64,000 nucleotides of DNA from Patescibacteria group bacterium (GTDB lineage: Bacteria > Patescibacteriota > Patescibacteriia > UBA1558 > GWA2-36-10), in contig JAQUKX010000004.1 in assembly GCA_028718865.1 (NCBI GenBank), forward strand, positions 35,753 to 99,752, in the 5' to 3' direction. The translations under genes and the position numbers were made by a program. The notes beneath the pieces were generated by a model, which worked only from the letters and a program-made list of their open reading frames with translations, had not been told where the DNA came from and did not search any database. Within the stretch, counting starts at the first letter, position 1. The number at the start of each line of letters is the position of its first letter. Shown one piece after another: positions 8,487-39,109 of this stretch.

Positions 8487-8489
8487 AAA

Positions 8490-12074: not shown

Positions 12075-12075
12075 A

Positions 12076-12447: not shown

Positions 12448-12483
12448 TATTTTACCATAATAAGGGATAAAAATCTAACAAAA

Positions 12484-12762: not shown

Positions 12763-12776
12763 ATTTTTTAAAATGT

Positions 12777-13499
12777 TTATTTTTTTCTCAACTTAGCAAT
12801 CGTATTACCCGCTTCAAGCAAGGTATCAAAAGTTCCAGTGTCTAACCAATAATGCTCATAAATTTTTACATCAAGCTGGCCGTCTTTGAGGTATAGATTA
12901 TTAATGTCGGTAATCTCTAATTCTCCCCGAGCTGATGGTTTTAGATTTTTGGCCTTGTCTACTACGCTATTATCATAAATATATAATCCAGTAATTGCAA
13001 AATTGCTTTTTGGTTTTTTTGGTTTTTCCTCAATACTGATTGCCTGCCTATCGGCGTCAAATTCCACCACGCCAAATCTCTGAGGATCAGATACTTCTTT
13101 GGCAAAAACCCGACCGCCACTATCAAAACTTTTAATAGCGCTACGCAAAAATTCACCATCGCCAACAAAAAGATTGTCACCAAGAATCAAAGTAACATTA
13201 TCATCACCAATAAAATTCTCGCCAATTAAAAATGCTTGGGCAATGCCCTCTGGCTTGTCTTGAACTTCATAGCTTATCTTTACGCCAAAATCTTTACCAC
13301 TACCCAGAAGACGGACAAAATTACCAATATTACTCGGATCGGAAATTATCAAAATATCTTTTATACCTCCCTCTATCAAAGTTTCCAAGGGATAATAAAT
13401 CATCGGCTTGTCATAAACAGGCAAAAGCTGTTTGCTAGTTACTTTGGTAAGTGGCTGAAGTCTACTACCGGCTCCGCCGGCAAGTATTATACCTTTCAT
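12777..13499 (-). CDS. rmlA: glucose-1-phosphate thymidylyltransferase (short form)
   Basis: 240 aa; [18 protein letters not shown] nucleotidyltransferase G-loop, ...GVVEFD... sugar-binding core. Confidence 0.85.
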
Positions 13500-13586
13500 A
13501 TGTTTCTATTATGTCATTCCTGCGAAAGCAGGAATCTGGCTAGATTCCGCAATTCACCAGCTGGTAAACGGAATAACTAATTAATT

Positions 13587-14468
13587 TTACTTTTTACTAT
13601 CTCTATACTTTTTAATAGCATCCTCTACTGCTTCTTTTACTGGACGCATCTTAATGCCTAATTTTGGCAAATTAAGTGAGGTCATGACATTGTTTGATCT
13701 TTTTTTATCTGCCAAACCGAGTTCGACAAGCTCACCCTCGCTAATCCAATCATTGCTATGACTAGGATCTACATATTTTTTATACATTTCCATAATCTCA
13801 CGCCACTTGATAGAACCGGGATTGGTCACATGATATATACCTTCGGCTTTTTTTTCCAAAAGCTGATGAAATACATCTATCATATCCTCTACTACAGTAA
13901 TACTGTTTTCTACATCAACTATCTTGGGATAGCTAGCTAGCTTGTCTATCAGATTGGCAGGATGAGGCTGGCAGTCTAAAGGTATGCGAATTCTAGCCAC
14001 GCCAATATTTGGCAGTTTGGATAGGACCAAATCAGCCGCGTATTTACATCTGGTATAGACGGCCACTGGATTGGCATAATCCTCTTCTGTCCAAGCCTGA
14101 TTGTCTGGCGCAGTGCCGTAAAATATACAACCAGTTCCCATATGCAAAAGATAAACTCCTTTTTTCTGGCAAGTCTCGGCAATTATCAAAGGTAAAAGAG
14201 TATTACCTTTGTAAGTTTCCACTTGATGAGTTTCACACCAGTCTACATTGGGTTTGCCCACTATACCAGCAGCATTGAGTATAGTATCGGGCTGATGCTC
14301 GTCAATTAATTTTTCAACATCTTCTACTGTCTCGACAATCTTGTCGGTAATAACTGCATCATCCCAACTCTGAGCACAGCGAGTGCCTAAATACCCCTTG
14401 CCTATTATTAATATTTTTCCGCCAGAGGCGGATCCCGCTTTGCGGGGCATATTACTTGTATTCATCAT
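13587..14468 (-). CDS. NAD(P)-dependent sugar reductase, dTDP-4-dehydrorhamnose reductase-like
   Basis: 293 aa; N-terminal GKGYLG Rossmann, ...NAAGIVGKPNVDWCE..., Y-x3-K (YTRCK); RmlD-like fold, substrate uncertain. Confidence 0.6.
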   Translation of the reverse strand: MMNTSNMPRKAGSASGGKILIIGKGYLGTRCAQSWDDAVITDKIVETVEDVEKLIDEHQPDTILNAAGIVGKPNVDWCETHQVETYKGNTLLPLIIAETCQKKGVYLLHMGTGCIFYGTAPDNQAWTEEDYANPVAVYTRCKYAADLVLSKLPNIGVARIRIPLDCQPHPANLIDKLASYPKIVDVENSITVVEDMIDVFHQLLEKKAEGIYHVTNPGSIKWREIMEMYKKYVDPSHSNDWISEGELVELGLADKKRSNNVMTSLNLPKLGIKMRPVKEAVEDAIKKYRDSKK

Positions 14469-14471
14469 AAC

Positions 14472-15155
14472 TCAAGCTTTTAAATGCTTCATGCCTACCT
14501 CAGGAAATTGCAAAAATTCTTTGCTGTTTATCAAATATTCCAAAACTTCCGCCATGTATTTTGGATTCAAAGCTAAAGAATAATCCCTTTTTCTAGAATA
14601 AGCGCTAAATAAAGGCGTATTCATGTAACCGGGATAAAAACCAATAACTCTAATATTATATTTACTTAATTCTGCTTGCAAGCATTTACTGAAACCATCA
14701 ACCGCATATTTACTAGCATAATAGACTACCCGCTCCTCTCTCCGAAAAAAAGCCGCCTGAGAAGCAATATTGATAATCGTCCCTTTTTTATTTTTTTTCA
14801 TAGAAGCAATAACTTCTCTGGCTAAAAGCATAAGCCCTGTCACATTTACATCAATTACTCTCTTTATTTCTTCCGGCTTATTGTTTCCCAACTCGCCCTC
14901 TATCCAAACTCCGGCATTATTTATCAGCACGTCAATCCGCTTGTGCTTTTTCAGAATATTTTTTATAGCTGTTTTGATTGACTGATAATCAGTAACATCG
15001 CATAGCTCATAATCGCATTTCAAAACTCTGGCCGCTCTTTTTAATTTCGCTTCTCTTGGCGATAAAATAATTACTTTATTTTTTGGCGAAAGTTTTTTGG
15101 CAGTGGCATAGCCCAAGCCACTTGTTCCTCCGGATATTGCTATTACTTTTTTCAT
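14472..15155 (-). CDS. short-chain dehydrogenase/reductase (SDR)
   Basis: 227 aa; ISGGTSGLG cofactor loop, NNAG, catalytic YYASKYAV (Y-x3-K). Confidence 0.8.
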   Translation of the reverse strand: MKKVIAISGGTSGLGYATAKKLSPKNKVIILSPREAKLKRAARVLKCDYELCDVTDYQSIKTAIKNILKKHKRIDVLINNAGVWIEGELGNNKPEEIKRVIDVNVTGLMLLAREVIASMKKNKKGTIINIASQAAFFRREERVVYYASKYAVDGFSKCLQAELSKYNIRVIGFYPGYMNTPLFSAYSRKRDYSLALNPKYMAEVLEYLINSKEFLQFPEVGMKHLKA

Positions 15156-27902: not shown

Positions 27903-28047
27903 TTTAACTTTATTTTTCTTAATTATTTCCAATAAATTATAACAGAATTGACCGGTGAAAACAAGCAAATTAACAAGCCGTCAGATTGGTTTACAGAAAT
28001 CTTAAAAACAAAAAACAGCCCCCAAGACCGCTAAAGCTCTTTTTATA

Positions 28048-29070
28048 TTAATTTTTACTAAACAAAAACCTGACTAAATTCCAATACTGGTCATTGCCTT
28101 TTTGCTTTTGCAAATACCACCACTCCACTCCCCAAAGATAAGTCTGCTTGAGATCGGCATTGATAGCAAATTGCAAATTGGCCTTGAACTGTTCAAAACT
28201 CAAAGACTTATTATAATCGTCAAACTCCAAATCCGCCAAAGTACCCCGAGGCACCCAAGGCTCGGCCTGCAGCTCGCTGACTATAGCTTGATCTTTACTC
28301 AGTCGATTTAAATGAAGTTTGAAACCGTAAAACCAATCAGGAATAGGATAATAAACATATCTAAATATCGGATTCCAAACTACCCGATACATGGTAGTGC
28401 CAAAAATATCTCCTATTTTGGCTTCCTGGCGCCAGGAGCTCAGCTCTCCTGAAGCACTGATAATAATCGGTCGACTGCTGTCTAGCTCTCTGACCAAAGC
28501 CACCTCTTTTTCCAAAAATTTCCTATCGCCTTTGGGGCACTCGCCAAACCAATCAAACAAAGGCTCGTTTTCTACCTGCCAAGCCACTATCTCTGGTCGA
28601 TTTTGATACCTAGCCACTACCTGTTTTAGCAAAAAAATCGTCCTTGACTCCAACTGATCTTTGTTATAAAGATCAACCCACTCCGGTACATGACATTCAG
28701 GCCAGCGTGGCAAACGGAATCCGATATTAGCAATAAATTTCACGCCACGCTTTGCTCCTTGATCAAAAATATAATCATAAAAAGCAAAGTCAAACTGCCC
28801 CGGACTCTGCTCCACCTCGTCCCAATAAATCGGCACGCGGATATGATCAGCCTGCAAATCATCCAAAATCGCCAAATAAAGCTCGGTTCTATCCAAGCCC
28901 AGCTCATCGGCAAACTTAGGTGAATAAGTCACTCCCCAAAAATCCGCTTTGGCCTCAAAATTTATATCTCTGGGATGGTGCTTGTCTATCTTGAAAGTCC
29001 AAAGCAAAAAAAAGCTCAAGAGTAAAAGCCAAAATATTTTTTTCTTGTAAAAAGTCCGGTAAAAAAACAT
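28048..29070 (-). CDS. glycoside hydrolase, clan GH-A (GH5/GH113-like), membrane-anchored
   Basis: 340 aa; N-terminal TM (IFWLLLLSFFLLW); WQVENEP catalytic-acid motif of clan GH-A (beta/alpha)8 hydrolases. Confidence 0.6.
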   Translation of the reverse strand: MFFYRTFYKKKIFWLLLLSFFLLWTFKIDKHHPRDINFEAKADFWGVTYSPKFADELGLDRTELYLAILDDLQADHIRVPIYWDEVEQSPGQFDFAFYDYIFDQGAKRGVKFIANIGFRLPRWPECHVPEWVDLYNKDQLESRTIFLLKQVVARYQNRPEIVAWQVENEPLFDWFGECPKGDRKFLEKEVALVRELDSSRPIIISASGELSSWRQEAKIGDIFGTTMYRVVWNPIFRYVYYPIPDWFYGFKLHLNRLSKDQAIVSELQAEPWVPRGTLADLEFDDYNKSLSFEQFKANLQFAINADLKQTYLWGVEWWYLQKQKGNDQYWNLVRFLFSKN

Positions 29071-29071
29071 A

Positions 29072-30010
29072 TTATCTGGCTATAAAATAAAGTCCCAAAG
29101 CAATCAAAATAATCGCTAATATTTTTTGCCAAACTATTAAGGCCGAATTATCTTCTTTTAATATCTTGGGATTAAATAAAGTAATAAGAAAAGTAAATAC
29201 CAAGATAAAAGCATACTGCAAGCCCTGCAAAGAAGTAACCAGAGCCACCGAACCCAGAGCCACGGCGTAATTCTGCAAAATAGAACCTGCTGCTCCCAAG
29301 CCTTGCGTGCCGAAAAAAATCAAGGGCGATTTTTTGTTTTTCTTTGACTGCTTGAGATCTTTTTTAATTTCTTGGCGCCAATTTTTTTTCAGCAAAAAAA
29401 CCAACACCGCCGCAAAAGTTCCTAGCCTAATCCAAATAAAAGCGCTGCCAAAATCCTGCAGATTATAAGCTTGCTTGCTGGCTGTCCAAAATGAAGCAAA
29501 GAAAAAAGCCGCCACCAAAGATAGAAAGACACTTTGCCATTTTTGAGCCAATTTGATGCCCAGAGCTTTTTTGATTTCCTGCCAGATGCTATGGCGACTG
29601 GATATACTGGCAATCATCAAAGTTCCCAAAACCAGATAATAAATCGCCAGCCACTGAAAAAAACTGAATTTCTCACGGAAAAAAATCAAGGAAAATAAAA
29701 CCACAAAAACCGGCACTGTCCCGCCTACCAGCGTAAAAATTTTGGAAGCATCATTGCCTCGCAAAGCGCTGTACAAAAAGAAAATACCGCCGGCAAAAAG
29801 AGCGCCGGTAAACAGATTGAAGAAAAACAAGCCCCAGCCCGGCCAAGCCAAAAACCAAGGCGCAGCCAAAACCACTATTGCGCCAAAGAGTCCCACCAAA
29901 AAAGCGTAAGTGCGCGGTCCAGGTATCACCTTTTCCACAATAAATTTATCAGCCACATTGACTATGGCCATAAAAAAATAAGCAAAAATTGCCACTATAA
30001 GCCAATTCAT
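29072..30010 (-). CDS. EamA/DMT-like multi-pass membrane transporter
   Basis: 312 aa, about 10 helices in two halves; 4-nt ATGA overlap with upstream OLD-like gene. Confidence 0.5.
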   Translation of the reverse strand: MNWLIVAIFAYFFMAIVNVADKFIVEKVIPGPRTYAFLVGLFGAIVVLAAPWFLAWPGWGLFFFNLFTGALFAGGIFFLYSALRGNDASKIFTLVGGTVPVFVVLFSLIFFREKFSFFQWLAIYYLVLGTLMIASISSRHSIWQEIKKALGIKLAQKWQSVFLSLVAAFFFASFWTASKQAYNLQDFGSAFIWIRLGTFAAVLVFLLKKNWRQEIKKDLKQSKKNKKSPLIFFGTQGLGAAGSILQNYAVALGSVALVTSLQGLQYAFILVFTFLITLFNPKILKEDNSALIVWQKILAIILIALGLYFIAR

Positions 30011-31341
30011 AAATTATCAATTATTTCTTTTATCTCTGACATTATTTTGGATTCAAATTCATTTTTACTAATTAGGCTGGCTGCTCGCAGAGCATTGAGA
30101 GATTTACTGTTATCATTTTGATAACTACGAGGATAATGAGATTCTAACGCTCCTTTGGAAAAAATAAAGATATTATTATTTTTTAATTGGACGACGAGCT
30201 CACTGGAATTAAGCGGCGGCAAGTGAATGCCTAAGTGTTCAGTCAAAGAATCAATGTAGTTATTTTTTAAAGCATCGTTATCTAGCATAATAGCAAAATC
30301 AATGGCAAAAGATCGCAGTAAATCCAAATAAATATTGGTATTGCCTTTGCCGTGAGTTTGGATGACTTTTATTTCCTTTTGACCATGATAAAATCTATCA
30401 ATCAGCCCCCGCATCAGCAGACGATCAGACACCCCTTCCACCAAAAGCACCTTGTCGGCAAAAAACATTTCCAAATTATCAGCGTTTAATTCCTGCAAAA
30501 GACGCTGGTAATTGTTATAAACTTTTTTATCCAGCGTAAAGGCCAAGGTGCTTTTACCTTCTTTGACCACCCGCACCAACTGGGGCAAAGTAGCCGGCGT
30601 AATAAACAAAGGCGAATGCGTGCTGAAAAGTATCTGGCCAGCCCAAGAATTTTGCATGGCCCAAAGCAATTTTTTGATCATGGCCGGATGAAGATGGGTC
30701 TCGGGCTCATCTACCATTACTACGCTATAATTGGGATGAAAAACATAAAGCAGCATAGTAAAAATCCGAAAAAATCCTGAACCCAAGCGATCAATAGTCA
30801 CTCGCCTCTGCCCCTCATACAAGCCATCATGGCCATAGTTGATATCCAGAGCGTTTTCCCTGGCAGAAATCTTGGCAAAATGCCTTTTCAAACTGTCTTT
30901 GAACTTTTCCAAATTGGCCGGATAGCGCTGCAAGCTGTGCCAGTCCATCTCTATTTGCTTGATATCAAAAAAAGCCGCTTCATCCAATCTCTTGACGCTT
31001 GACGATAAAATTATTTTCAAAGACTGATTATAAGCCAATTCTTTTTCCTTAAAAACAATTTTCCTTTCCTGATTTTGCAGAATAAAAACTCCTTCTTTGT
31101 CCGGCAGTTGATGGCGCTTTACTTCTTGCTCGTCAAATTCCAAATAAATTTCCAAATCGGCGTTGGCATAGTATATCTGCTCGTTATCCAGCGCCCCGGA
31201 CAAAGCAAACTCAATGGCATCTAAGACATTGCTCTTGCCGCTGTTGTTCTGGCCGATAAAAACAGCAATCAAAGACAAGTCTATCAGCATAGGCTGCTTG
31301 ATGCTTTTATAGGTATTGATTTTTATTTTTTTTATCAGCAT
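30007..31341 (-). CDS. OLD-family ATP-dependent endonuclease (ABC-type ATPase + Toprim)
   Basis: Walker A GQNNSGKSN; Walker B/D-loop/H-loop VVMVDEPETHLHP; C-terminal Toprim-like LLVEGVSDRLL ... IMLDNDA; start at MLIKKIK (31341) with a 2-nt gap to the upstream gene stop; the 490-aa ORF extension overlaps that gene. Confidence 0.7.
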   Translation of the reverse strand: MLIKKIKINTYKSIKQPMLIDLSLIAVFIGQNNSGKSNVLDAIEFALSGALDNEQIYYANADLEIYLEFDEQEVKRHQLPDKEGVFILQNQERKIVFKEKELAYNQSLKIILSSSVKRLDEAAFFDIKQIEMDWHSLQRYPANLEKFKDSLKRHFAKISARENALDINYGHDGLYEGQRRVTIDRLGSGFFRIFTMLLYVFHPNYSVVMVDEPETHLHPAMIKKLLWAMQNSWAGQILFSTHSPLFITPATLPQLVRVVKEGKSTLAFTLDKKVYNNYQRLLQELNADNLEMFFADKVLLVEGVSDRLLMRGLIDRFYHGQKEIKVIQTHGKGNTNIYLDLLRSFAIDFAIMLDNDALKNNYIDSLTEHLGIHLPPLNSSELVVQLKNNNIFIFSKGALESHYPRSYQNDNSKSLNALRAASLISKNEFESKIMSEIKEIIDNL

Positions 31342-31343
31342 TT

Positions 31344-32699
31344 CTAGAGCAAATGCACATCCTCTACTTCGCTTACCTTGCTGTGGAGCACTAAATTTTC
31401 TATATGGTAAGCGCCCATTTTGGGAGCATCCAAAAATCCTTCTACCGCTGCTTCCGCCAGCCAGCCTGAATCCAGCCAATCAAAAAGCCACTCGTCGACA
31501 TAAGCCGGATCAAGACTATCAACGCCCGAACCAATAGCCAAAAGCCAGCCGCGGTTGTAAATCTCCTGCGAGCCGACCGGCTCGGACATAATAATAGGCA
31601 GTCCCAGGCCAGTATAAAAAGTCAGCTCTGATGGCTTGGTCCATAAAATATCCGTTTTTCTTAAAATTTTGTTAAAAACGGAAAAGTAAGTCATTTTTTC
31701 CTCGGTGTAGATTATCTTTACATTATCGGAATTAAATAAGCCCAGCCTTTTCACTTCGTCCTCAAAATAAGTATAAACATCATTGCGAGTGCCGGCTACT
31801 AGATTGAGTTGGATATCCTTGGCCTTGATATGTTTTTTTAGCTTTTTCAAAATAGTTATACCGATATCGCGCTGCGCGCCAGCGCCGCCGACAGCAAAAG
31901 TGATAGTCAAAGGCCGTTTGGGTTTTTTTATTTTTTTGATTGGACAAAGATAGTCTTCTATCAGCTTGGCGTATTTTTTGCGATAAACACCGCGGGGGTC
32001 TAGATTATATACTCTGTCCGCCAAATCCGCCCGCAAAACCGATTGATCCAAGCCGCCGATATTTTCCGGCGGCAAAGGAAAGCCGGTGATAAAAATATTT
32101 TTCTCCCTGACGCCGTAGAGTTTTAAACGCTCTTTGACTCTTTTGTTGGGTGCCAGATAAATTATCCGGCTCTTGGACGGATTTGGCGGCGCCCAAGCAC
32201 GGGCAATATCGGCATCGCAAACCACTAAATATATCGGTCCTTTGTAATTATAATATTCAGCAAAGTAAGCCGGAACAAAAAAAGTGGTCAAAAAAGGCAA
32301 GGGTTTTTTATTTAGCTCTCTTATTAATTCTCGACCCAGGCCTTTTTTTACTTGATTAAAAAAATAATTCTGCTGGCTGGAATTAGCGGAAAGGTCGCGG
32401 CGCGGGTAAAAAGGCTCAATTTTCTGAAAACTGTCCATAATAGAAAAAGCCGCTGTGCCTAAAAGCGGAACATTTTTGAAACGAGAAATTATTTCATACC
32501 ACTTACGGCCACTTTGCCAAACTCTCTTTTCTCGAGAGTTGATGCCGGGGTAATTATTGGCATTGATAATACCGTGATAAGCTAAGGAGGCAAAAGGATA
32601 AGCCGCTCGCTGATGTCCGTAGCCCATGTCCACCGCCACAACATACATTTTTTCCGCCGGCAGCTTAGATACTCGGGCTTGAAGGGTTTTATTTTTCAT
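31344..32699 (-). CDS. GT-B fold glycosyltransferase, GT28-like (MGDG synthase/UgtP/MurG-like)
   Basis: 451 aa; N-terminal VDMGYGHQRAA (compare GGGH of MGDG synthases), C-terminal ITFAVGGAGAQ ... ILWTKPSELTFYTGLGLPIIMSEPVGSQEIYN resembling GT28 donor-binding domain; no nucleotide-binding P-loop. Confidence 0.5.
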   Translation of the reverse strand: MKNKTLQARVSKLPAEKMYVVAVDMGYGHQRAAYPFASLAYHGIINANNYPGINSREKRVWQSGRKWYEIISRFKNVPLLGTAAFSIMDSFQKIEPFYPRRDLSANSSQQNYFFNQVKKGLGRELIRELNKKPLPFLTTFFVPAYFAEYYNYKGPIYLVVCDADIARAWAPPNPSKSRIIYLAPNKRVKERLKLYGVREKNIFITGFPLPPENIGGLDQSVLRADLADRVYNLDPRGVYRKKYAKLIEDYLCPIKKIKKPKRPLTITFAVGGAGAQRDIGITILKKLKKHIKAKDIQLNLVAGTRNDVYTYFEDEVKRLGLFNSDNVKIIYTEEKMTYFSVFNKILRKTDILWTKPSELTFYTGLGLPIIMSEPVGSQEIYNRGWLLAIGSGVDSLDPAYVDEWLFDWLDSGWLAEAAVEGFLDAPKMGAYHIENLVLHSKVSEVEDVHLL

Positions 32700-32838
32700 T
32701 TATTTTTTATTTTTATTTTCCCCGAGAAGCTTTTTTAATAGCGCAAACTCGGCACTTCTCGACCGGCTTTTTTGCGATGTTTTTTCTTGGCGATTCTTTT
32801 CTTTTTATTCATAAAATAAAAATATAATCAAAAAGAAT

Positions 32839-32859: not shown

Positions 32860-33060
32860 ATTATAACATAAAATAGCCTTGAAGCCAAAATTATTTCTTC
32901 AGCAGACGATAAAAAATAAAAATAAAAATCAAGCTATAAAAATAATATTCCAAATTGATCAGACGATGGACTGCTCCTGGCTTCAATATTTCAAAAATCA
33001 CCAAAAGCAGCCAAGCTGTCAGTGCTGTTCTAAAAAAATCTCTAATAATCAAACTAAAAA

Positions 33061-33561
33061 TCATCTGCTAAAAGTTATCTGCCAATTATTTTTCAACACA
33101 GGGCTAAGGTCATCAGATCCCAGCGCCGGTAGGGATAAAATAACCTGTAAAGAATTTCTTTTGAGCTGGGCATTGGTCAAATCAAAACTAATCTCAAAAT
33201 CACTAGACTCAATTTCTCTAAAATCCCAAGAACCGTCTTTTTGCCGCAATCCCAATCTAACTTCCGTCATCTCCATCTCAAAGCTGCCATTGACTATCAT
33301 TGTTTTGAACTTGGTCGGCAAATAAACATCCAGATAAAGAGGCTCGCCCAAAACCAAAATCTGGCCATTGATAAATTCCACTCTAGACTGCGGATACCAG
33401 CCAAAAATATCACGGCTCAAATCATGGCGGAAATCAAGCTGATAAGTCAAATTGCGCCCCAAAACCAAAGATTGGGATAAAATCCAAATTAGCAAAACCG
33501 TAAAAACCGCTAGCCATAAATAACGGAAAAAATAAACAATTTTCTTTTGGCTTATTTCCAT
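33061..33561 (-). CDS. hypothetical N-terminally anchored protein
   Basis: 166 aa; N-terminal TM (YLWLAVFTVLLIWILS) then soluble domain; divergent from the 701-aa membrane protein gene. Confidence 0.5.
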   Translation of the reverse strand: MEISQKKIVYFFRYLWLAVFTVLLIWILSQSLVLGRNLTYQLDFRHDLSRDIFGWYPQSRVEFINGQILVLGEPLYLDVYLPTKFKTMIVNGSFEMEMTEVRLGLRQKDGSWDFREIESSDFEISFDLTNAQLKRNSLQVILSLPALGSDDLSPVLKNNWQITFSR

Positions 33562-33654: not shown

Positions 33655-35760
33655 ATGATTAGCTTCAGCCGAGAGCAAAATATTTTGGGCCAATTCGCTC
33701 TAGCCGGCCTGATACTGGGCAATATTTTTATTTTTCAGCTAAAAGCACTGGCCATTATCTTGGCCTTACTTTTTATCTGGCTAAACAGCCGCAAACTGGC
33801 TGATATCTTTGCCGCTGATATCCATCAGGGTTTCAAAAACTTGGTCGGATTTTTGATAATTATAGCTTATATTAGCCTGACCTACACGCTAGCTTATCAC
33901 GTCTATCAGATTGACTTCTGGGTATTTCTTTTTACTTTTTTATCAATACCGATTATTGTCGAGGTTTTTTCTTATTTTAAAAACAGTCGGCACTATTTTC
34001 TAGCCAATTTGAAACTTTCTCCTCCCAGCTTACAGCATCTCCGCCGCAATCTTTTGCCTATTTTGGTCATAGTTTTTGATATTATTCTGCTTGTCGGCTT
34101 ACAAAAAAGCACCAGCATCGGCATTATCCGCTCTCCTTGGGAGCTTTTGGGTCAAAAATTCTGGACTGTTTTCACTTTGAGTAATTTTTTCCTACTCTTA
34201 TCAATCATTGATCAGTCTTCACGCAAAAACATCCTGCTTATTTCTTTTCATTTTTTTGTTTTGGCCAGCATCGGCATTATCCTCTACCCGCTGGGTTTTG
34301 GCTATGATTCTTTTATCCACGCCGCTGTCATTAAAGTAATAGATCAAACTGGCACAATTGAACCGCGTCTTTTTCTCTATATAGGCCAATACGGCCTGAC
34401 CTTTTTCTTTGGTCAGATATTCCAGATTGACCCCTTAGTGGTAAACAAATGGCTGCTGCCTATTATCTTTGCCATTATTTGGCCGGCCAGTGTTTTTTAT
34501 GGCTTACGCTACGGCTTCAAGTGGCCTTTTTCCATCAGTTATCTAGCCAGCTGCTGGAGTCTGGTGATAGGCTTTAACTTTGCCGTCATGACTACCCCTC
34601 AGAATTTAGCTTATGTCTTCGTAGCCATGATGGTTTTTTTGCTGCCTATAATCATCAAAAAAAGCCTGCCCCTTTTCTTCCCTTGGCTGATAAGCGCTAT
34701 GACTATGGCCGTTCATCCTTTGGGCGGTGTGCCTTTATTTTTTCTCAGCGCTTATATCAGCATCTTGCGAATAAAAAAATTCCCCAAGTTGAGAAAAATG
34801 CTTCTGGGCTTAAATTTTTTTGGCGCCCTACTAGGACTACCGCTTTTGTTTGCTATATACCAAAGGCTCAACCACATCAGCTGGCCGGAAATAATCACTC
34901 CTCAAATCGGATCTTTTTTCCGCCTGCCTGATTTCTATTGGCATAACACTTTTAGTTTTCCCTTGGACATGTTCCACAATCTGGCCAATAATTTTTTCTG
35001 GCTGTACTCTATCTTATTCCTGCTTGGCCTGTATTTTATTTACCAAAACAGCAAATATATATTTTTTCAAAGACTGTTTTATCTGCTTTTGGTGATTTTT
35101 GTCAATTATGTCTTGGCAGCTTTGTTTTTGTCATTCAATCTGCAAATCAACTACCAAAAAGACGCTTATCTGGAGCGACTGCTCTATCTGCTGCTAATTG
35201 CTACTCTGCCGGTATTTCTCACTACTTTTTATTTCCTCTGGCAGCATACCCTCAAAACTAAAAAAGCGTTTTTTGGAAAAACCCTGCTTTTGCTCTTGAG
35301 CCTGCTGCTGGTATCAGTGAGCACTTACTTCAGCTACCCAATATACGACCGCTTGGGCAACAGCAAAAGCTTCAATGTCAGCGCTAGCGATCTTAAAACC
35401 GTAATTTTGATAGACCAGCACTCTCAAGGAGAGCCTTATATAGTATTGGCCAATCAAATGGTGGGAGCAGCTGCTATTGATTCCTTTGGCTTTGCCCATT
35501 ATTACAATGACAATTTCTACTACTCCATGCCTCTGGGCAGTGACAATATCTACCAAAATTATCTGGCCATGATAGAGCAAGAAGCCAGCCGCCAAGAAGC
35601 TATAAGTGCCATGGACAAAACTCAAGTTGACCGGCTTTATTTTGTCGTCAATAATTACTGGCATAGCGCTAAACAAGCCATTGCCCAAGCCAGTGTCAGT
35701 GCTGACCAAAAAATACTAGTGGATCAAGGTGTCAATACCATCTTTGTTTACCAAAGATAA
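33655..35760 (+). CDS. hypothetical large polytopic membrane protein with C-terminal soluble domain
   Basis: 701 aa, over 14 hydrophobic segments then about 130-aa hydrophilic tail; only long plus-strand gene in this region. Confidence 0.6.
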   Translation: MISFSREQNILGQFALAGLILGNIFIFQLKALAIILALLFIWLNSRKLADIFAADIHQGFKNLVGFLIIIAYISLTYTLAYHVYQIDFWVFLFTFLSIPIIVEVFSYFKNSRHYFLANLKLSPPSLQHLRRNLLPILVIVFDIILLVGLQKSTSIGIIRSPWELLGQKFWTVFTLSNFFLLLSIIDQSSRKNILLISFHFFVLASIGIILYPLGFGYDSFIHAAVIKVIDQTGTIEPRLFLYIGQYGLTFFFGQIFQIDPLVVNKWLLPIIFAIIWPASVFYGLRYGFKWPFSISYLASCWSLVIGFNFAVMTTPQNLAYVFVAMMVFLLPIIIKKSLPLFFPWLISAMTMAVHPLGGVPLFFLSAYISILRIKKFPKLRKMLLGLNFFGALLGLPLLFAIYQRLNHISWPEIITPQIGSFFRLPDFYWHNTFSFPLDMFHNLANNFFWLYSILFLLGLYFIYQNSKYIFFQRLFYLLLVIFVNYVLAALFLSFNLQINYQKDAYLERLLYLLLIATLPVFLTTFYFLWQHTLKTKKAFFGKTLLLLLSLLLVSVSTYFSYPIYDRLGNSKSFNVSASDLKTVILIDQHSQGEPYIVLANQMVGAAAIDSFGFAHYYNDNFYYSMPLGSDNIYQNYLAMIEQEASRQEAISAMDKTQVDRLYFVVNNYWHSAKQAIAQASVSADQKILVDQGVNTIFVYQR

Positions 35761-36117: not shown

Positions 36118-36247
36118 AAGCTTAAGTTTAATTATTTTAATGATTAATTTTCATCAATAAATATAGCACATTTATAAAAGTTTGTGAATATTTGTCAATA
36201 AAAATAGGCTAAAACACATACACATCCCCAAAAAAATGTCAAATTGC

Positions 36248-36283
36248 TAAAAAATTACCCAGCCCCTCGGCTAAGAGGCTGGG
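36248..36283 (-). terminator. intrinsic terminator of GC-rich islet A (minus strand)
   Basis: Minus strand: ACCCAGCCucuuagccgagGGGCUGGGUaauuuuuu, 27 nt below the stop of 36309..36610. Confidence 0.65.
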
Positions 36284-36308
36284 TAAGCTGTCTGCCGCAA
36301 AAAAACGG

Positions 36309-36610
36309 CTAGATCAGGTAGGCGATGTTGTAGCTACAACGAACCGTGTGTCCGTTGACAGCCCCACACTCGTGGCAGGGCTCGGCCGGTTGCTGAGAAC
36401 GGTCATTGGACTGATTACTCTGTTTTTCCTGGCTCATGCTAGCATCTCCTTGGGTTTGTTCCTGAGGGTTGACTGACGCTAAAATAGCGCCTCTTTCTTT
36501 CTTGATTTTCTGCCAACAACTGACAGGGTTGCAAAAAGCTTGTCCGCAATAAAGACAACGCCACTCTCCTTTGGGCAGGCTGCTTTGACAGCCGCTTTTT
36601 TCATCAGACA
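36309..36610 (-). CDS. hypothetical small Cys-rich protein (islet A)
   Basis: 100 aa from internal Met MSDEKSGCQSS...; AGGAGGA SD 5 nt upstream (gcttcAGGAGGAagcttATG); Cys motifs C-x2-C ... C-x4-C and C-x2-C ... C; GC-rich codons unlike the host. Confidence 0.55.
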
Positions 36611-36627
36611 TAAGCTTCCTCCTGAAG

Positions 36628-36876
36628 CTAAATGGCCGTATTGATGCCTCGTGGATCAAAGCCGCCGCCACACATGCAGTAGATGCTATCATCAGGACAG
36701 CGACAATTCTCCCTAAGAATAAAGGCAATGGAATGCTCGTAGCCACGACGGTGGCTTGAATTTGCTCTACAGCGCTCCAACAAAGCGTAGAGACTATCCA
36801 AAATGGCGATTTTGAAAGGTCCGAGGACCGGCCCTTTCTTGGGCTGATGCCTCAAATCAACTGACAACTGACTCAT
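36628..36876 (-). CDS. hypothetical small protein (islet A)
   Basis: 82 aa; SD GGGAGGTAAGGAGCA then ATG; C-terminal CRCPDDSIYCMCGGG; 17-nt gap to the next gene. Confidence 0.5.
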   Translation of the reverse strand: MSQLSVDLRHQPKKGPVLGPFKIAILDSLYALLERCRANSSHRRGYEHSIAFILRENCRCPDDSIYCMCGGGFDPRGINTAI

Positions 36877-37147
36877 TGCTCCTTACCTCCCTGTTGGTTG
36901 AAAAGATGAAAGTGAACCTGGAACTTAGCTAAAATTGAAATGTACTAGCCAAAAAACAACAAAAAAATCGCCTAAGTATTGGCGATTCGCGTTTTGGTGT
37001 TTAGAGGCTTGATTATTATTACCAGCAAAAAGCGACCGCCTAAGGCGAGAGCAAAATAATGCTAATAATGACAATCAAATTTCTAAACATATATTTATCT
37101 TAAATATAATAACATAAAATATAAAAATGTCAAATTAAAAAATGATT

Positions 37148-37180
37148 GAGCGGGCGGAAAGCAGTGCTTTCCGCCCGCTC
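37148..37180 (-). terminator. intrinsic terminator inside islet A
   Basis: Perfect 15-bp GC-rich stem GAGCGGGCGGAAAGC-agt-GCTTTCCGCCCGCTC; on the minus strand it is followed by aaucauuuuuu. Confidence 0.65.
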
Positions 37181-37184
37181 TTGC

Positions 37185-37325
37185 CTAAAAATGACGCTCC
37201 AATCCCTGGAAAAACTGCCGGATGATTTCCTCCTTTCTGGCTTTGGCTTTATTGTCCTCAGAACCGGCCGGCGAAGCCGAAGCAGGCAGATTTTCTCGGC
37301 CGGGAAGCTGATCTCTCGGATTCAC
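37185..37325 (-). CDS. possible 46-aa ORF with GTG start (islet A)
   Basis: GGAGGAgtagtcGTG then NPRDQLPGRENLPASASPAGSEDNKAKARKEEIIRQFFQGLERHF stop; hand-translated, below the ORF-track cutoff. Confidence 0.25.
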   Translation of the reverse strand: MNPRDQLPGRENLPASASPAGSEDNKAKARKEEIIRQFFQGLERHF

Positions 37326-37342
37326 GACTACTCCTCCTCTGC

Positions 37343-37558
37343 TTAAGGAAAAATCCTAGCCAAGCAAGACCGGAGGTCTTGCAGAACAAAGCGCCGGCAC
37401 TCATCGCCGTCGCAGCAGTCAAAAACCATACAGCCACGGCTGTACTCATAGCGAGCTGGCGCTCCGCAATTACTGCAGATTCTGACCTGACCGCTGGCAT
37501 CCAGCTGCGACTTGGGGTTCAACTGGTATTCCCTAGGTTCTTCCCTGTACTTGCTCAT
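37343..37558 (-). CDS. hypothetical small Cys-rich zinc-ribbon-like protein (islet A)
   Basis: 71 aa MSKYREEPREYQLNPKSQLDASGQVRICSNCGAPARYEYSRGCMVFDCCDGDECRRF...; SD gtcAGGAGGagctgacaATG. Confidence 0.55.
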   Translation of the reverse strand: MSKYREEPREYQLNPKSQLDASGQVRICSNCGAPARYEYSRGCMVFDCCDGDECRRFVLQDLRSCLARIFP

Positions 37559-37810
37559 TGTCAGCTCCTCCTGACTGCTTGTGGTTTGTTTGACCCTGAA
37601 TTGAAGAAGACTTCTAGACTTGGATGTGAAAAGAACAATCAAAAAAGGCCGCTTTTAGGCGCCCTTAGTTTCACTATACTCAAATTATCGGATATATGAA
37701 AAAACTAAGTCGCCAAACGACCAATGAAAAAGTAAAAGCTAAAGAATGACGAATTTGATCTTATATCCATAAATAAATCATAACAAAAATAAAAGATAAG
37801 TCAAGCAAAA

Positions 37811-38821
37811 TTAATCTTTTGCTTCAAAATCCAAAAAATAACCGAACCTAGCTCTTCCTCTATATTGCGGTTTTTTCAAATTCAAAGTAGTGATTATGCC
37901 GCGCGGACTCAAATCATAACCTTCTATTTTTACATCCCGACCGTCAACAATGGCCGTGGCCATTACCGGTTGAGGATGGCCTATGGCATAAGCCAATTTT
38001 ACCAAGACTTCTTTGGCCTGATATTTTTTCAAATACTTTGTAGCCAGATAACGAGCCATATAAGCAGCGCTACGATCAACTTTGGTGGCATCCTTACCGC
38101 TATAGCAGCCACCGCCGACTGGAATCTGCGGGCCATAGTTATCCACAATAATTTTACGTCCGGTTAAGCCGGTATCTGCCTCAAAACCTCCTTGGACAAA
38201 AGGACCAGCTGGATTGATAAAAATATTTTTATAATCCGGTACAATAGTATCTACTATTTCTTTTTGAACCAGTTTTCTCAATTGCTCAATCTCAATCTCC
38301 GGACTATGCTGGGTGGAAATAACTACGGTTTCCACTTGGCCGTTATTGATAGTGATTTGTGATTTGCCATCGGGCCGCAAATATTTTGCCAGCTCTGACT
38401 GGCCTTTTACCCTTACTTCCTCGAGCTTTCTGGCCAAATTATAAGCCAAGACATGTTCGCGAGGAAGGAGCTCTTTGGTTTCGCTGCTAGCATAACCCAC
38501 CATGATACCCTGATCGCCAGCGCCACCGGTATCTACTCCCCGGGCAATATCAGGGCTTTGCTTAACAATATTGACGAATATTTCCAATTCTTCATCATAG
38601 CCGATTTCTTTATAAACTTCCCTGGCAATTTGGGCGGCGTCAAACTTGGCGCTGGTAGTCACCTCGCCCATAATAACTAGCTGGCCATGCCCGCCCAAAG
38701 CTTCTACTGCCACCCGACTGTCGGGATCTTGCCTCAAACATTCATCTAAAATAGCATCCGATATCTGGTCGCAAACTTTATCCGGATGACCGTAAGTTAC
38801 ATTTTCCGCTGTCTTTAGCAT
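37811..38821 (-). CDS. metK: S-adenosylmethionine synthetase (short form)
   Basis: 336 aa; GHPDKVCDQISDAILD, GGAGDQGIMVGYA and other MetK motifs. Confidence 0.88.
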   Translation of the reverse strand: MLKTAENVTYGHPDKVCDQISDAILDECLRQDPDSRVAVEALGGHGQLVIMGEVTTSAKFDAAQIAREVYKEIGYDEELEIFVNIVKQSPDIARGVDTGGAGDQGIMVGYASSETKELLPREHVLAYNLARKLEEVRVKGQSELAKYLRPDGKSQITINNGQVETVVISTQHSPEIEIEQLRKLVQKEIVDTIVPDYKNIFINPAGPFVQGGFEADTGLTGRKIIVDNYGPQIPVGGGCYSGKDATKVDRSAAYMARYLATKYLKKYQAKEVLVKLAYAIGHPQPVMATAIVDGRDVKIEGYDLSPRGIITTLNLKKPQYRGRARFGYFLDFEAKD

Positions 38822-38842: not shown

Positions 38843-38990
38843 AAAAACTCTCCTTTAAGAGAGTGGATAAAAATTATCTTTCCCTCACAAAGGGTTGGAC
38901 TGAGCACCTTTCTCTGCCTGCCAGCTGGCAGACAGCAAGATGGTTGCCGGCGGATCACAGAGCCAATTCTCTCCCCGCTCTCTTGATAAA
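38843..38990 (-). promoter_or_regulatory. SAM-I (S-box) riboswitch with terminator expression platform, in metK leader
   Basis: Minus strand: UUAUCAAGAGAGCGGGGAGAGAAUUGGCUCUGUGAUCCGCCGGCAACC...AAGGUGCUCAGUCCAACC...GGGAAAGAUAA (P1 UUAUC/GAUAA, conserved AGAGNGG, GGCAACC, GGUGC, AGAUAA), then hairpin CCACUCUCUUAAAGGAGAGU plus UUUUUU before the metK ATG. Confidence 0.8.
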
Positions 38991-39109
38991 ACTTTTCCGC
39001 AACTGCTGCGAAAAATATTAAATTGTTAAAAATAGTATAGCTTATTTTGAAAATTTTGACAAATATGCAATAATAATAGAGTAAAAAATAAAAAAGGAGA
39101 AATATAAAA

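What the first reader, a model, noticed from the sequence alone, without database searches (positions are those of the whole stretch)
29072..32699. OLD-family ATPase/Toprim nuclease translationally coupled into an envelope-glycan operon
Gene 30007..31341 has a Walker A (GQNNSGKSN), an ABC-type Walker B/H-loop (MVDEPETHLHP) and a C-terminal Toprim-like segment (LLVEGVSD ... MLDNDA). That is the OLD (overcoming lysogenization defect) nuclease architecture used by several anti-phage systems (class 1 OLD, Gabija GajA, PARIS). Here it is not next to a helicase or a second defence gene. Its ATG lies 2 nt after the stop of a GT28-like glycosyltransferase, and its last codons overlap (ATGA) the start of an EamA-like transporter. 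A defence nuclease embedded in a cell-surface glycan operon in a reduced genome is unusual and may represent a stand-alone or novel-partner OLD variant.
Basis: partly seen in the sequence, partly recalled or inferred. Interest (0 to 1): 0.6.

Follow-up and report, generated by a model that had tools for sequence, protein, structure and literature searches.

The report
Stand-alone OLD nuclease in glycan operon
A complete single-gene OLD-type ATPase-nuclease, from a little-studied branch found only in ultra-small bacteria (CPR) and archaea (DPANN), sits inside a cell-envelope sugar operon that related organisms carry without it, so it is a long-resident passenger gene and not a new multi-gene defence system.

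Summary
On the minus strand, 30007..31341 encodes a 444-aa OLD-family protein with an ABC-type ATPase and a Toprim domain. All catalytic residues are present and invariant in relatives. Its ATG lies 2 nt after the stop of a GT28-like glycosyltransferase, and its end overlaps (ATGA) an EamA transporter, which is followed by a PslG-like glycosidase. No helicase, reverse transcriptase or AriB partner is nearby.

The "novel-partner" reading is not supported. Thirty related metagenomic loci carry GT-EamA-glycosidase directly adjacent without OLD. The GT-adjacent OLD is confined to one monophyletic lineage, where it co-diverges with its neighbours under strong purifying selection.

The protein belongs to the uncharacterised OLD clade "U2" (CPR plus DPANN) of Yang et al. 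2025. Other U2 members sit just as stably in unrelated housekeeping operons: dnaK-OLD-dnaJ in DPANN, and OLD-mnmA-alaS in other CPR. Tight gene junctions are the norm in this genome.

Best reading: a stand-alone, class-1-like OLD nuclease riding on a housekeeping operon. It is probably an innate anti-phage or anti-foreign-nucleic-acid enzyme. A Cran1-like housekeeping role is a serious rival. Interest is moderate.

The parts
32860..32888 (-). Promoter-like site (TTGGCT-17 nt-TATAAT with upstream TG) in the 360-nt gap upstream of the GT gene. It is the candidate start of the four-gene transcription unit.
   Evidence: Consensus scan only, 10 of 12 matches; sequence read. Not evidence of function.
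31344..32699 (-). GT28-like (UgtP/MGD1-type) GT-B glycosyltransferase, Pfam DUF6938. First gene of the ancestral GT-EamA-glycosidase envelope operon.
   Evidence: Pfam DUF6938 at 1.5e-15. NCBIfam diglucosyl-DAG synthase at 3.7e-7, below cutoff. The family profile hits processive diacylglycerol beta-glucosyltransferase 9wde at 3.9e-9 and MGD1 4wyi at 0.028. Relatives are 52-74% identical.
30007..31341 (-). OLD-family ATPase + Toprim nuclease, 444 aa, clade U2 (CPR/DPANN). Stand-alone, with no cognate partner gene.
31231..31254 (-). Walker A / P-loop G30-S37 (GQNNSGKS, K36)
   Evidence: Read directly. G30, N32, G35 and K36 are invariant in 20 homologues.
30685..30723 (-). Walker B / D-loop segment, aa 207-219 (VVMVDEPETHLHP; D211, E212, H218)
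   Evidence: E212, P213, E214, H218 and P219 are invariant. The segment aligns to TsOLD IIEEPEMYLHP, in which E276 is the Walker B residue and H283 the D-loop residue (PMC7049728).
30610..30624 (-). H-loop, aa 240-244 (STHSP, H242)
   Evidence: T241 and H242 are invariant. Aligns to TsOLD STHSP.
30274..30465 (-). Toprim core, aa 293-356, with metal-binding acids E302, D306, D354 and D356
   Evidence: PF20469 at 8.3e-15. All four acids are invariant, as is E400 further on. They align to TsOLD LLVEGYGD...VHDED. The equivalent P2 Old residues E398, E402, D453 and D455 are essential (PMC7049728).
29072..30010 (-). EamA/DMT-superfamily 10-TM transporter; its start overlaps the OLD stop (ATGA). Second gene of the ancestral operon. 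Its substrate is inferred to be a glycolipid or sugar, working as a flippase or exporter.
   Evidence: Pfam EamA at 1.4e-14. No solved relative. Directly follows GT in 30 OLD-less loci.
28048..29070 (-). Membrane-anchored clan GH-A TIM-barrel glycosidase-like protein (PslG / GH5-like). Third gene of the ancestral operon.
   Evidence: Weak Pfam hits to GH42, GH5, GH2 and GH10. PDB hits: endoglucanase H at 1.1e-6 and PslG at 1.8e-6. The N-terminal hydrophobic segment was read.
28014..28032 (-). Terminator-like hairpin plus T-run, 16 nt after the glycosidase stop. Candidate end of the transcription unit.
   Evidence: Consensus scan only.

Best explanation
Gene 30007..31341 (minus strand) encodes a catalytically intact, stand-alone OLD-family enzyme. 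It has an ABC-type ATPase head with a short helical insertion, fused to a Toprim two-metal nuclease. It belongs to the CPR/DPANN-specific clade 'U2'.

The gene was acquired long ago between the first and second genes of a pre-existing envelope-glycan operon: a GT28-like glycosyltransferase, an EamA transporter and a PslG-like glycosidase. It is co-transcribed with these genes but is not part of their function. It uses the operon as a constitutive expression platform. The same pattern holds for its relatives inside dnaK-dnaJ (DPANN) or upstream of mnmA-alaS (other CPR).

Inferred mechanism, by analogy with class 1 OLDs (P2 Old, Vc OLD, TsOLD): a homo-oligomer in which ATP binding and hydrolysis by the ABC heads gates the Toprim site, which nicks or cleaves nucleic acid (DNA, or structured RNA such as tRNA).

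Inferred role: single-gene innate protection of a small genome against phage or other invading nucleic acid.

Shown here: domain identity, residue conservation, fold, operon anatomy, presence/absence pattern, co-divergence and purifying selection.

Inferred only: enzymatic activity, substrate, oligomeric state, co-transcription and the defence role.
For: Identity:
- Pfam, PADLOC and PDB matches.
- AF2 model with pLDDT 85.7 and pTM 0.83. The best PDB fold is 6p74, TsOLD (E 2.3e-18), followed by GajA and the retron Eco8 OLD.
- K36, E212, H218, H242, E302, D306, D354, D356 and E400 are invariant in 20 homologues at 49-67% identity.

Stand-alone status:
- No helicase, RT or AriB in the window or in any of more than 40 related loci.

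Passenger in a pre-existing operon:
- 30 loci have GT-EamA directly adjacent, usually followed by the glycosidase, with no OLD (gaps 4-281 nt). Only 9 of the 80 loci fetched have GT-OLD.
- All GT-adjacent OLD loci form one clade in the GT tree.
- On an EamA+glycosidase bootstrap tree, that clade groups with OLD-less lineages (83%) and not with the second OLD-EamA-glycosidase clade (8%). The two OLD clades are nevertheless sisters on the OLD tree. This implies gain and loss relative to the backbone.

Stable functional resident:
- OLD distances co-vary with those of GT, EamA and the glycosidase (Mantel r 0.72-0.85, p 0.0005).
- dN/dS is 0.05-0.14, like its neighbours.

Clade behaviour:
- Closest literature clade is U2, CPR + DPANN.
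- U2 members lie in dnaK-OLD-dnaJ on 3 DPANN contigs, and in phosphatase/MetRS-OLD-(...)-MnmA-AlaRS on 4 CPR contigs.

Defence prior:
- Every characterised bacterial OLD is anti-phage: P2 Old, a tRNA nuclease (PMC12445682); Vc OLD, a nickase (PMC12392090); YbjD (PMC13261556); plus Gabija, retron Eco8 and PARIS.
- The cross-domain CPR/DPANN distribution, and the absence of OLD from many sister lineages, fit an accessory gene.
Against: - Nothing here shows anti-phage activity.
- The gene is not in a defence island. There is no other defence gene in the 64-kb window (PADLOC found none among the five neighbouring proteins scanned; housekeeping annotation).
- No clade member was found on IMG/VR viral contigs, phage records or plasmids.
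- Within each lineage it is vertically inherited at a fixed position under purifying selection as strong as that on its neighbours. That is the pattern that led Yang et al. 2025 to discover a non-defence role for the Sulfolobales OLD Cran1.
- OLD immediately upstream of EamA-glycosidase in two deeply diverged clades could still reflect a functional link and not only inherited synteny.
Confidence: 0.45

Rival explanations
1. Housekeeping OLD. The U2 clade is a non-defence ATPase-nickase needed for chromosome or nucleic-acid maintenance in ultra-small CPR and DPANN cells (replication, segregation, repair or chromatin). This would parallel the essential cell-cycle OLD Cran1 of Sulfolobales. Its place in constitutive housekeeping operons would reflect a constitutive cellular role.
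For: - Lineage-stable positions inside housekeeping operons: the glycan operon here; dnaK-OLD-dnaJ on three DPANN contigs at 51-61% identity; OLD-mnmA-alaS-infA-rpsM on four CPR contigs.
- Co-divergence with neighbours and dN/dS of 0.05-0.14.
- Absence from viral, phage and plasmid collections.
- Retention in roughly 1-Mb genomes.
- Precedent of Cran1, clade U11 (PMC12796447).
Against: - The clade is small: only 34 clusters at 50% identity reach E <= 1e-30. It is therefore far from universal in CPR.
- At least 30 related lineages keep GT-EamA with no OLD at the site. The neighbour tree implies gain or loss.
- The mixed bacterial/archaeal membership of U2 suggests horizontal transfer.
- I could not test whether OLD-less genomes carry a copy elsewhere.
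Confidence: 0.3
2. Novel-partner system. OLD works together with the EamA transporter and the membrane-anchored glycosidase, and perhaps the GT. One version couples a nucleic-acid sensor/nuclease to an envelope effector or surface remodelling. Another has the ABC-type head energising or regulating the transporter.
For: - OLD lies immediately upstream of EamA-glycosidase in two clades whose OLDs are only about 40% identical and whose outer flanks differ completely. One has GT upstream; the other has a CAP-domain protein upstream and PilB/PilC downstream.
- GT-OLD junctions are 8 nt or less, or overlapping, in 15 of 17 loci counting the window.
Against: - The operon exists without OLD in 30 loci, with GT-EamA gaps as small as 4-6 nt.
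- The OLD-EamA spacer ranges from -4 nt to about 2 kb and can hold unrelated inserted genes.
- More distant clade members have no EamA or glycosidase nearby and sit in unrelated operons.
- The two OLD-EamA-glycosidase clades are sisters on the OLD tree. The shared adjacency is therefore explained by common descent.
- PADLOC finds nothing for the neighbours.
Confidence: 0.07
3. Nucleotide-salvage or DNA-uptake nuclease. CPR bacteria that cannot make nucleotides might use this cytoplasmic ATP-dependent nuclease to process DNA imported by the type IV pilus / competence machinery.
For: - Type IV pilus genes (PilB, PilC) lie just downstream of OLD-EamA-glycosidase in one clade.
- A PilB lies just upstream of GT in L004.
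- A pilin-like gene is inserted next to OLD in L012.
- OLD enzymes can act as 5'-3' exonucleases in vitro (PMC10568477).
Against: - Pilus-gene proximity is not seen in the window or in most loci.
- The clade is absent from most CPR lineages that share the same auxotrophy.
- No ComEC or DprA linkage was seen.
Confidence: 0.05
4. Not an OLD nuclease at all: a RecF/SbcC/SMC-like housekeeping ATPase mis-read as OLD.
For: Weak N-terminal hits to SMC_N, RecF and Rad50 P-loop regions, all below family cutoffs.
Against: - Those hits cover only residues 1-70.
- The full-length architecture, the Toprim domain with invariant acids, and the fold matches are to OLD, GajA and retron-OLD proteins.
Confidence: 0.01

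Closest known systems
Class 1 OLD nucleases (P2 Old, Thermus scotoductus OLD 6p74, Vibrio cholerae Vc OLD, E. coli YbjD/OldB)
   Same: - Single polypeptide with an N-terminal ABC ATPase, a helical insertion and a C-terminal Toprim.
- Same catalytic residues: Walker A Lys, Walker B acid, D-loop His, H-loop His, and the E / DxD metal ligands.
- Isolated gene without a helicase, RT or AriB partner.
- Best PADLOC model ('Old') and best solved structure (6p74).
   Different: - About 80-140 residues shorter: 444 aa against 528 (TsOLD) and 552 (YbjD).
- Only about 25% identity to P2 Old, over residues 183-369.
- Falls in clade U2, not among the class 1 sequences of Yang et al. 2025.
- Restricted to CPR, with DPANN sisters.
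- Embedded in and co-oriented with a housekeeping operon, whereas YbjD is convergent and isolated.
- Not on a prophage or mobile element.
OLD clade U2 of Yang et al. 2025 (EMBO Rep, PMC12796447): Kerfeldbacteria/Parcubacteria/Patescibacteria plus Nano-/Woesearchaeota
   Same: - Best BLAST matches of all the clade representatives I tested: 31-37% identity over the full length, E 1e-61 to 7e-78, to CPR members; 45-48% over the core to DPANN members. For comparison, U1, U3 and U4 give E 1e-7 to 1e-17.
- Shared signature QELNA(D/E)N.EMFFAD.V.LVEG.SD.
   Different: - The paper only lists the clade as uncharacterised. It gives no genomic context, function or CPR/DPANN interpretation.
- The window protein belongs to a sub-branch (Komeilibacteria-like, about 444 aa) that I did not find among the Patescibacteria-labelled entries of the dataset (term search; parts 11-12 read).
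- Membership rests on BLAST, not on a tree.
Cran1 (Sulfolobales OLD, clade U11)
   Same: OLD-family ATPase-nickase in a taxonomically coherent clade that is vertically inherited at a conserved locus. It is the precedent for a non-defence role.
   Different: - Different clade and domain of life.
- Cran1 is conserved across the whole order, whereas this gene is missing from many sister lineages.
- No essentiality or cell-cycle data exist here.
Gabija GajA (class 2), retron Eco8 OLD (class 3), PARIS AriA/AriB (class 4)
   Same: Homologous ATPase and Toprim modules. All match the model and the sequence significantly.
   Different: - Each is defined by a partner: the GajB helicase, an RT plus ncRNA, or a split AriB.
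- None of these is present here or in any related locus.
Glycolipid/exopolysaccharide operons such as ypfP(ugtP)-ltaA of Gram-positives and the PslG hydrolase of Psl operons (for the host operon, not for OLD)
   Same: A UgtP/MGD-type GT-B transferase followed by a polytopic membrane transporter and a membrane-anchored clan GH-A hydrolase. The parallel with ypfP-ltaA comes from my own knowledge.
   Different: - The transporter is EamA/DMT, not MFS.
- Similarities are weak (E 1e-6 to 1e-9).
- The product is unknown.

Membership tests
OLD family (ATPase + Toprim nucleases) | N-terminal ABC/SMC-type ATPase with Walker A lysine, Walker B acid, D-loop and H-loop | tested here: met
   AAA_21 at 6.6e-22 and AAA_15 at 9.3e-21. 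K36, D211/E212, H218 and H242 are present. K36, E212, H218 and H242 are invariant; position 211 varies D/N/S. They align to the TsOLD motifs.
OLD family (ATPase + Toprim nucleases) | C-terminal Toprim domain with the conserved Glu and DxD metal ligands | tested here: met
   PF20469 at 8.3e-15, residues 293-356. E302, D306, D354 and D356 (plus E400) are invariant in 20 homologues.
OLD family (ATPase + Toprim nucleases) | Overall fold like solved OLD proteins | tested here: met
   AF2 model with pLDDT 85.7. Foldseek top hits are 6p74 TsOLD (E 2.3e-18, TM 0.60), then GajA and retron Eco8.
OLD family (ATPase + Toprim nucleases) | ATP hydrolysis and metal-dependent nuclease activity | not testable with these tools
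   Needs purified protein.
Class 1 OLD | Isolated gene: no adjacent helicase, RT/ncRNA or AriB, and not near other defence genes | tested here: met
   Neighbours are a GT, EamA, a glycosidase, an S8 protease, GT2s, epimerases, HU and MetK. PADLOC finds nothing for the neighbours. The same holds in more than 40 related loci. Unlike classic examples, it shares an operon with non-defence genes.
Class 1 OLD | Groups phylogenetically with class 1 sequences (P2 Old, TsOLD, Vc OLD) | tested here: inconclusive
   The best HMM is PADLOC 'Old' and the best structure is TsOLD. By BLAST it is far closer to clade U2 (E 1e-61 to 7e-78) than to TsOLD (4.8e-11) or P2 Old (5e-7). No full tree with class 1 representatives was built.
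Class 1 OLD | Anti-phage activity as a single gene | not testable with these tools
   Needs a phage challenge.
Class 2 OLD / Gabija GajA | UvrD/PcrA/Rep-like helicase (GajB) immediately downstream | tested here: not met
   The downstream gene is EamA. No GajB-type (UvrD/PcrA/Rep-like) helicase lies next to OLD here or in any related locus examined; the only helicase-domain protein found in the window is UvrB, about 14 kb away.
Class 3 OLD / retron effector | Adjacent reverse transcriptase and msr/msd ncRNA | tested here: not met
   No RT domain in the neighbours. Rfam finds only two tRNAs and a SAM riboswitch in the window. The NCBIfam retron Eco8 effector score is 60 bits against a cutoff of 250.
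Class 4 OLD / PARIS | ATPase (AriA) and Toprim (AriB) encoded as separate adjacent genes | tested here: not met
   ATPase and Toprim are fused in one 444-aa ORF.
OLD clade U2 (Yang et al. 2025) | Closest sequence relatives are the CPR and DPANN sequences assigned to U2 | tested here: met
   BLAST against dataset sequences: U2 CPR members at 31-37% identity over the full length; U2 DPANN at 45-48% over the core; U1, U3 and U4 much weaker. In the reciprocal search, a DPANN U2 query retrieves the CPR short OLDs next after DPANN. A tree-based placement was not done.
Cran1-type housekeeping OLD (clade U11) | Sequence membership in the Sulfolobales clade; essential, cell-cycle-regulated | not tested
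   No U11 sequence was compared. Essentiality is not testable here. Only the evolutionary pattern (vertical, locus-stable) resembles it.
GT28 / UgtP-MGD glycolipid synthases (upstream gene) | Significant match to the GT28 catalytic domains | tested here: inconclusive
   Pfam assigns DUF6938 only. NCBIfam PRK13609 scores 29 bits against a cutoff of 500. The profile hits UgtP 9wde at 3.9e-9 over about 65 residues.

The most novel reading that the evidence does not exclude
The U2 OLDs may be a conserved non-defence ATPase-nickase of ultra-small episymbionts, shared between CPR bacteria and DPANN archaea and hard-wired into housekeeping operons (the glycan operon here, dnaK-dnaJ in DPANN, mnmA-alaS-ribosomal genes in other CPR). 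This would be a second case, independent of Cran1, of an OLD enzyme recruited for core nucleic-acid or chromosome biology, possibly acting on tRNA.
Probability: 0.3. Interest if true: 0.7.

Novelty: new member of a known kind. Interest (0 to 1): 0.4.

Why it matters

What is worth keeping is the pattern around it. A compact OLD clade is confined to the two groups of ultra-small symbiotic prokaryotes (CPR and DPANN). It always occurs as a single gene and is stably embedded in housekeeping operons, including between dnaK and dnaJ in DPANN. It is under strong purifying selection, yet it is absent from many sister lineages.

That pattern gives a concrete test case for two open questions:
- Do partner-less (class-1-like) OLDs defend on their own?
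- Is the recently discovered non-defence role of an archaeal OLD (Cran1) an isolated case?

It also bears on how organisms with genomes of about 1 Mb and few known defence systems protect themselves.

Tried and rejected
1. Hidden RNA gene or conserved element in the variable OLD-EamA spacers of relatives (L003, L007-9, L013). There were no Rfam gathering-level hits. The spacers are not alike except between close relatives, apart from a short shared stretch that corresponds to a 48-aa Cys-rich ORF. They are not part of the system.

2. Helicase, RT or AriB partners, or any PADLOC hit for the five neighbouring proteins scanned. None was found.

3. A phage or plasmid origin for the clade. The IMG/VR scan with clade-specific peptide patterns found none. 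Phage and plasmid tblastn gave only distant partial OLD hits, none covering 80% or more of the query.

4. Functional coupling with EamA and the glycosidase. I considered this seriously because of the two OLD-EamA-glycosidase clades. I rejected it as the main reading after the OLD-less loci, the sister relationship of the two OLD clades and the unrelated contexts of other U2 members.

5. Structure prediction of the GT from alignment A2.

6. A first bootstrap script timed out. It was redone with a faster distance routine.

7. Literature search for CPR defence surveys that mention OLD. Nothing relevant turned up.

8. Rfam at a permissive threshold on the 1.7-kb HU-metK spacer. Only chance-level hits appeared.

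Full report
**1.

The region lies on the minus strand. ORF listing gives four consecutive genes:
- a 451-aa protein at 31344..32699;
- the OLD candidate at 30007..31341, which is 444 aa from its ATG;
- a 312-aa protein at 29072..30010;
- a 340-aa protein at 28048..29070.

The mechanical ORF for OLD extends to a TTG at 31479. The N-terminus conserved among homologues supports the ATG at 31341.

The GT-OLD junction is TAG-AA-ATG, a 2-nt gap. The OLD-EamA junction is an ATGA overlap.

Pfam assigns AAA_21 (6.6e-22), AAA_15 (9.3e-21) and OLD-like_TOPRIM PF20469 (8.3e-15, residues 293-356) to the middle protein. It assigns EamA to the downstream one and DUF6938 to the upstream one. The best PADLOC model is 'Old' (2.4e-39), followed by many GajA models. 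None of the five neighbouring proteins scanned hits PADLOC.

**2. It is a complete OLD enzyme**

Twenty homologues at 49-67% identity align without large gaps. They keep K36 (Walker A), E212 (Walker B), H218 (D-loop position), H242 (H-loop), E302 and D306 (LVEGxSD), D354 and D356 (DxD) and E400 invariant.

These align to the motifs of Thermus scotoductus OLD. They also correspond to residues whose mutation abolishes P2 Old activity: K37, D299, H306, H332, E398, E402, D453 and D455 (PMC7049728).

An AlphaFold2 model (pLDDT 85.7, pTM 0.83) has as best solved-structure matches TsOLD 6p74 (E 2.3e-18), then GajA and the retron Eco8 OLD. SMC and Rad50 heads match the ATPase part only.

The protein is short: 444 aa against 528 for TsOLD. 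In the model, the helical insertion in the ATPase spans only about residues 104-156.

**3. The surrounding genes form an envelope-glycan unit in an ordinary housekeeping stretch**

- The upstream protein's family profile hits the processive diacylglycerol beta-glucosyltransferase UgtP (3.9e-9) and plant MGD1 (0.028). NCBIfam gives a sub-threshold UgtP-type hit. 'GT28-like' is plausible but weakly supported.
- The fourth gene has an N-terminal hydrophobic anchor and weak clan GH-A matches, including endoglucanase H and the exopolysaccharide hydrolase PslG (about 1e-6).
- Further downstream lie an S8 protease, GT2 transferases, a NUDIX protein and sugar epimerases.
- Upstream lie two conserved unknown proteins, HU, and metK with a SAM riboswitch. 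UvrABC, Mur ligases, RpoA/S4 and DnaK lie elsewhere in the window.
- A promoter-like site lies in the 360-nt gap upstream of the GT. A terminator-like hairpin follows the glycosidase (consensus matches only).
- About 45 of 53 ORFs of 150 aa or more are on the minus strand. Of 44 adjacent minus-strand pairs, 17 have gaps of 6 nt or less, or overlap.

Co-orientation and tight junctions therefore carry little special information in this genome.

**4. Relatives show that OLD is an insertion into a pre-existing operon**

A protein search found more than 370 homologues. The best 120 are all about 420-460 aa and, where named, all from Patescibacteria.

In contigs carrying OLDs at 49% identity or more to the window's (L001-L016), the order GT-OLD-EamA-glycosidase is kept. 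This holds even where the outer flanks differ. The GT-OLD junction is 8 nt or less, or overlapping, in 15 of 17 loci counting the window. The OLD-EamA spacer varies from -4 nt to about 2 kb and can hold unrelated genes.

A second clade, with OLD about 40% identical, has a CAP-domain protein, then OLD, EamA, the glycosidase, a small membrane protein, PilB and PilC. OLDs at 34-39% identity have no EamA or glycosidase nearby. They lie next to glycogen genes (convergent), MacB, HlyD or YfhO.

The reverse query was decisive. I scanned metagenomes with the GT family. Of the 80 loci returned:
- 9 have GT-OLD;
- 30 have GT followed directly by EamA (gaps 4-281 nt), usually then by the glycosidase, with no OLD;
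- 24 have other genes after GT;
- 15 are too short to judge;
- 2 have EamA or the glycosidase further away, with no OLD.

All GT-adjacent OLD loci form one clade in the GT tree.

I built a bootstrapped NJ tree of EamA plus the glycosidase (648 columns, 100 replicates). In it:
- the main OLD-bearing clade is monophyletic (96%);
- it groups with OLD-less lineages (83%) and not with the second OLD-bearing clade (8%);
- on the OLD tree, by contrast, the two OLD-bearing clades are sisters.

So OLD was gained upstream of EamA once and later lost cleanly at least once, or it was transferred. Either way, the three-gene operon does not need it.

**5. Within its lineage, the gene is a stable, selected resident**

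Pairwise OLD distances correlate with those of GT, EamA and the glycosidase (Mantel r 0.72-0.85, p 0.0005). This is as strong as the correlation of those genes with each other. dN/dS for close pairs is 0.05-0.14, like its neighbours. Base composition is unremarkable.

**6. The wider clade**

An exhaustive profile-free search of 1.84 billion cluster representatives finds only 34 clusters at E <= 1e-30. There is a step down to generic OLD/GajA proteins of about 640 aa at about 1e-27. This is a small, distinct clade.

Yang et al. 2025 (PMC12796447) describe eleven uncharacterised OLD clades. Their clade U2 contains Kerfeldbacteria, Parcubacteria and Patescibacteria, plus Nano- and Woesearchaeota.

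The window protein matches U2 CPR members at 31-37% identity over the full length (E 1e-61 to 7e-78). It matches U2 DPANN members at 45-48% over the core. Its matches to U1, U3 and U4 are far weaker. A DPANN U2 query retrieves about 17 DPANN clusters of about 526 aa, and then the CPR short OLDs.

Contexts found for other U2 members:
- Three DPANN contigs at 51-61% identity have GrpE-DnaK-(one gene)-OLD-DnaJ, with gaps of 2-6 nt before dnaJ.
- Four other CPR contigs place OLD just upstream of MnmA, AlaRS, IF1 and S13-S11-S4-RpoA (with two extra genes in between on one contig). Upstream of OLD is a phosphatase on three contigs and MetRS on the fourth.

No clade member turned up on IMG/VR viral contigs, phage records or plasmids. 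P2 Old is a 25%-identity partial hit.

**7. How it most likely works**

Shown here: an intact ATPase-Toprim enzyme with no cognate partner, expressed (by position) from a housekeeping operon, selected for function, and dispensable for the operon.

Inferred, by analogy with class 1 OLDs: a homo-oligomer whose ATP cycle gates a two-metal Toprim site that nicks or cleaves nucleic acid. Vc OLD nicks DNA and blocks phage replication. P2 Old, activated by ATP hydrolysis, cuts tRNA anticodon stems. TsOLD and P2 Old are 5'-3' exonucleases in vitro.

I commit to single-gene innate defence against phage or foreign nucleic acid as the most likely role (0.45). Three reasons support this. Every characterised bacterial OLD is anti-phage. 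The gene shows gain and loss relative to its backbone. The clade spans two domains of life.

The strongest rival (0.30) is a Cran1-like housekeeping role. It is favoured by locus stability inside essential operons, strong purifying selection and absence from mobile elements.

A true functional partnership with EamA and the glycosidase (0.07) and a DNA-uptake or salvage role (0.05) are not excluded, but the comparative data argue against them.

**8. Comparison and novelty**

By the context criterion it is class-1-like, an isolated OLD gene. By sequence it belongs to, or lies next to, clade U2, which is catalogued but uncharacterised. It fails the defining partner features of classes 2, 3 and 4. 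I file it as a new member of a known kind.

The part I could not find described in the papers I read is the behaviour of U2. It is a CPR/DPANN-restricted, single-gene OLD stably embedded in different housekeeping operons. That pattern is moderately interesting. The specific claim of a novel OLD-glycan system is not supported.

Noticed in passing
L165 6001-7581, L166 6001-7587, L169 5001-6584 (DPANN archaeal contigs): The closest archaeal relatives of this OLD (about 526 aa; Woese-/Nanoarchaeota) sit between dnaK and dnaJ, in the order GrpE-DnaK-(PEP-utilizer in one)-OLD-DnaJ. Only 2-6 nt separate OLD from dnaJ, and the arrangement is conserved on three contigs at 51-61% identity.
   Followed up: partly
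L167 6001-7305, L168 6001-7296, L170 5001-6305, L171 5001-6365: In Kerfeldbacteria-type CPR the homologous OLD lies upstream of mnmA (tRNA 2-thiouridylase), alaS, infA, rpsM-rpsK-rpsD and rpoA, immediately so on three contigs and two genes away on L171. A DSPc phosphatase or MetRS is upstream. The tRNA-related neighbours are notable because P2 Old and PARIS target tRNAs, but this may be coincidence.
   Followed up: no
window 36118-37810: A 1.7-kb stretch between HU and metK has no convincing gene and no Rfam match. Relatives have only about 130 nt here (L001-L003). It contains a 33-bp palindrome (37148-37180) and two small Cys-rich (zinc-ribbon-like) ORFs on the minus strand (36309..36746 and 37343..37642).
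   Followed up: partly
window 38871-38992 (-): A SAM riboswitch (RF00162, 61 bits) lies upstream of metK (37811..38821). It is also found upstream of metK in L010, L013 and L014.
   Followed up: yes
L012 9358-9504; similar DNA in L003 9353-9425 and L010 9331-9415: A small 48-aa Cys-rich (metallothionein-like) ORF lies immediately downstream of OLD in some relatives. It is absent from the window.
   Followed up: no
L003 9339-10291, L007/L008 9348-9844, L009 9333-9706, L013 9339-10891: ORF-poor spacers that are G+C-richer than their surroundings (0.41-0.50 against a locus mean of 0.34-0.42) lie between OLD and EamA in several relatives. They have no Rfam hit and are not similar to each other except between close relatives. 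Their nature is unknown.
   Followed up: partly
L012 9565-11289: An insertion between OLD and EamA carries a transposase-like ORF on the opposite strand and a type IV pilin-like gene (N-terminal GFTLIEI motif). This shows that the OLD-EamA junction tolerates insertions.
   Followed up: no
L017-L019, L024, L028 (about 6400-14700): A second OLD-EamA-glycosidase clade has a CAP-domain membrane protein (and, in L024, a sortase and a 1200-aa surface protein) upstream. Downstream it has a small membrane protein, PilB and PilC.
   Followed up: partly
window 33061-33561 (-) and 33655-35760 (+): Two proteins without any Pfam, NCBIfam or PADLOC hit (166 aa, and a 701-aa polytopic membrane protein) are syntenic with the operon in most close relatives (37-54% identity).
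   Followed up: no
window 32760-32812 (-): A tiny Lys/Arg-rich ORF (MNKKKRIAKKKHRKKAGREVPSLRY) lies between the promoter-like site and the GT start. Gene calls of 58-63 aa exist at the same place in L002 and L003.
   Followed up: no
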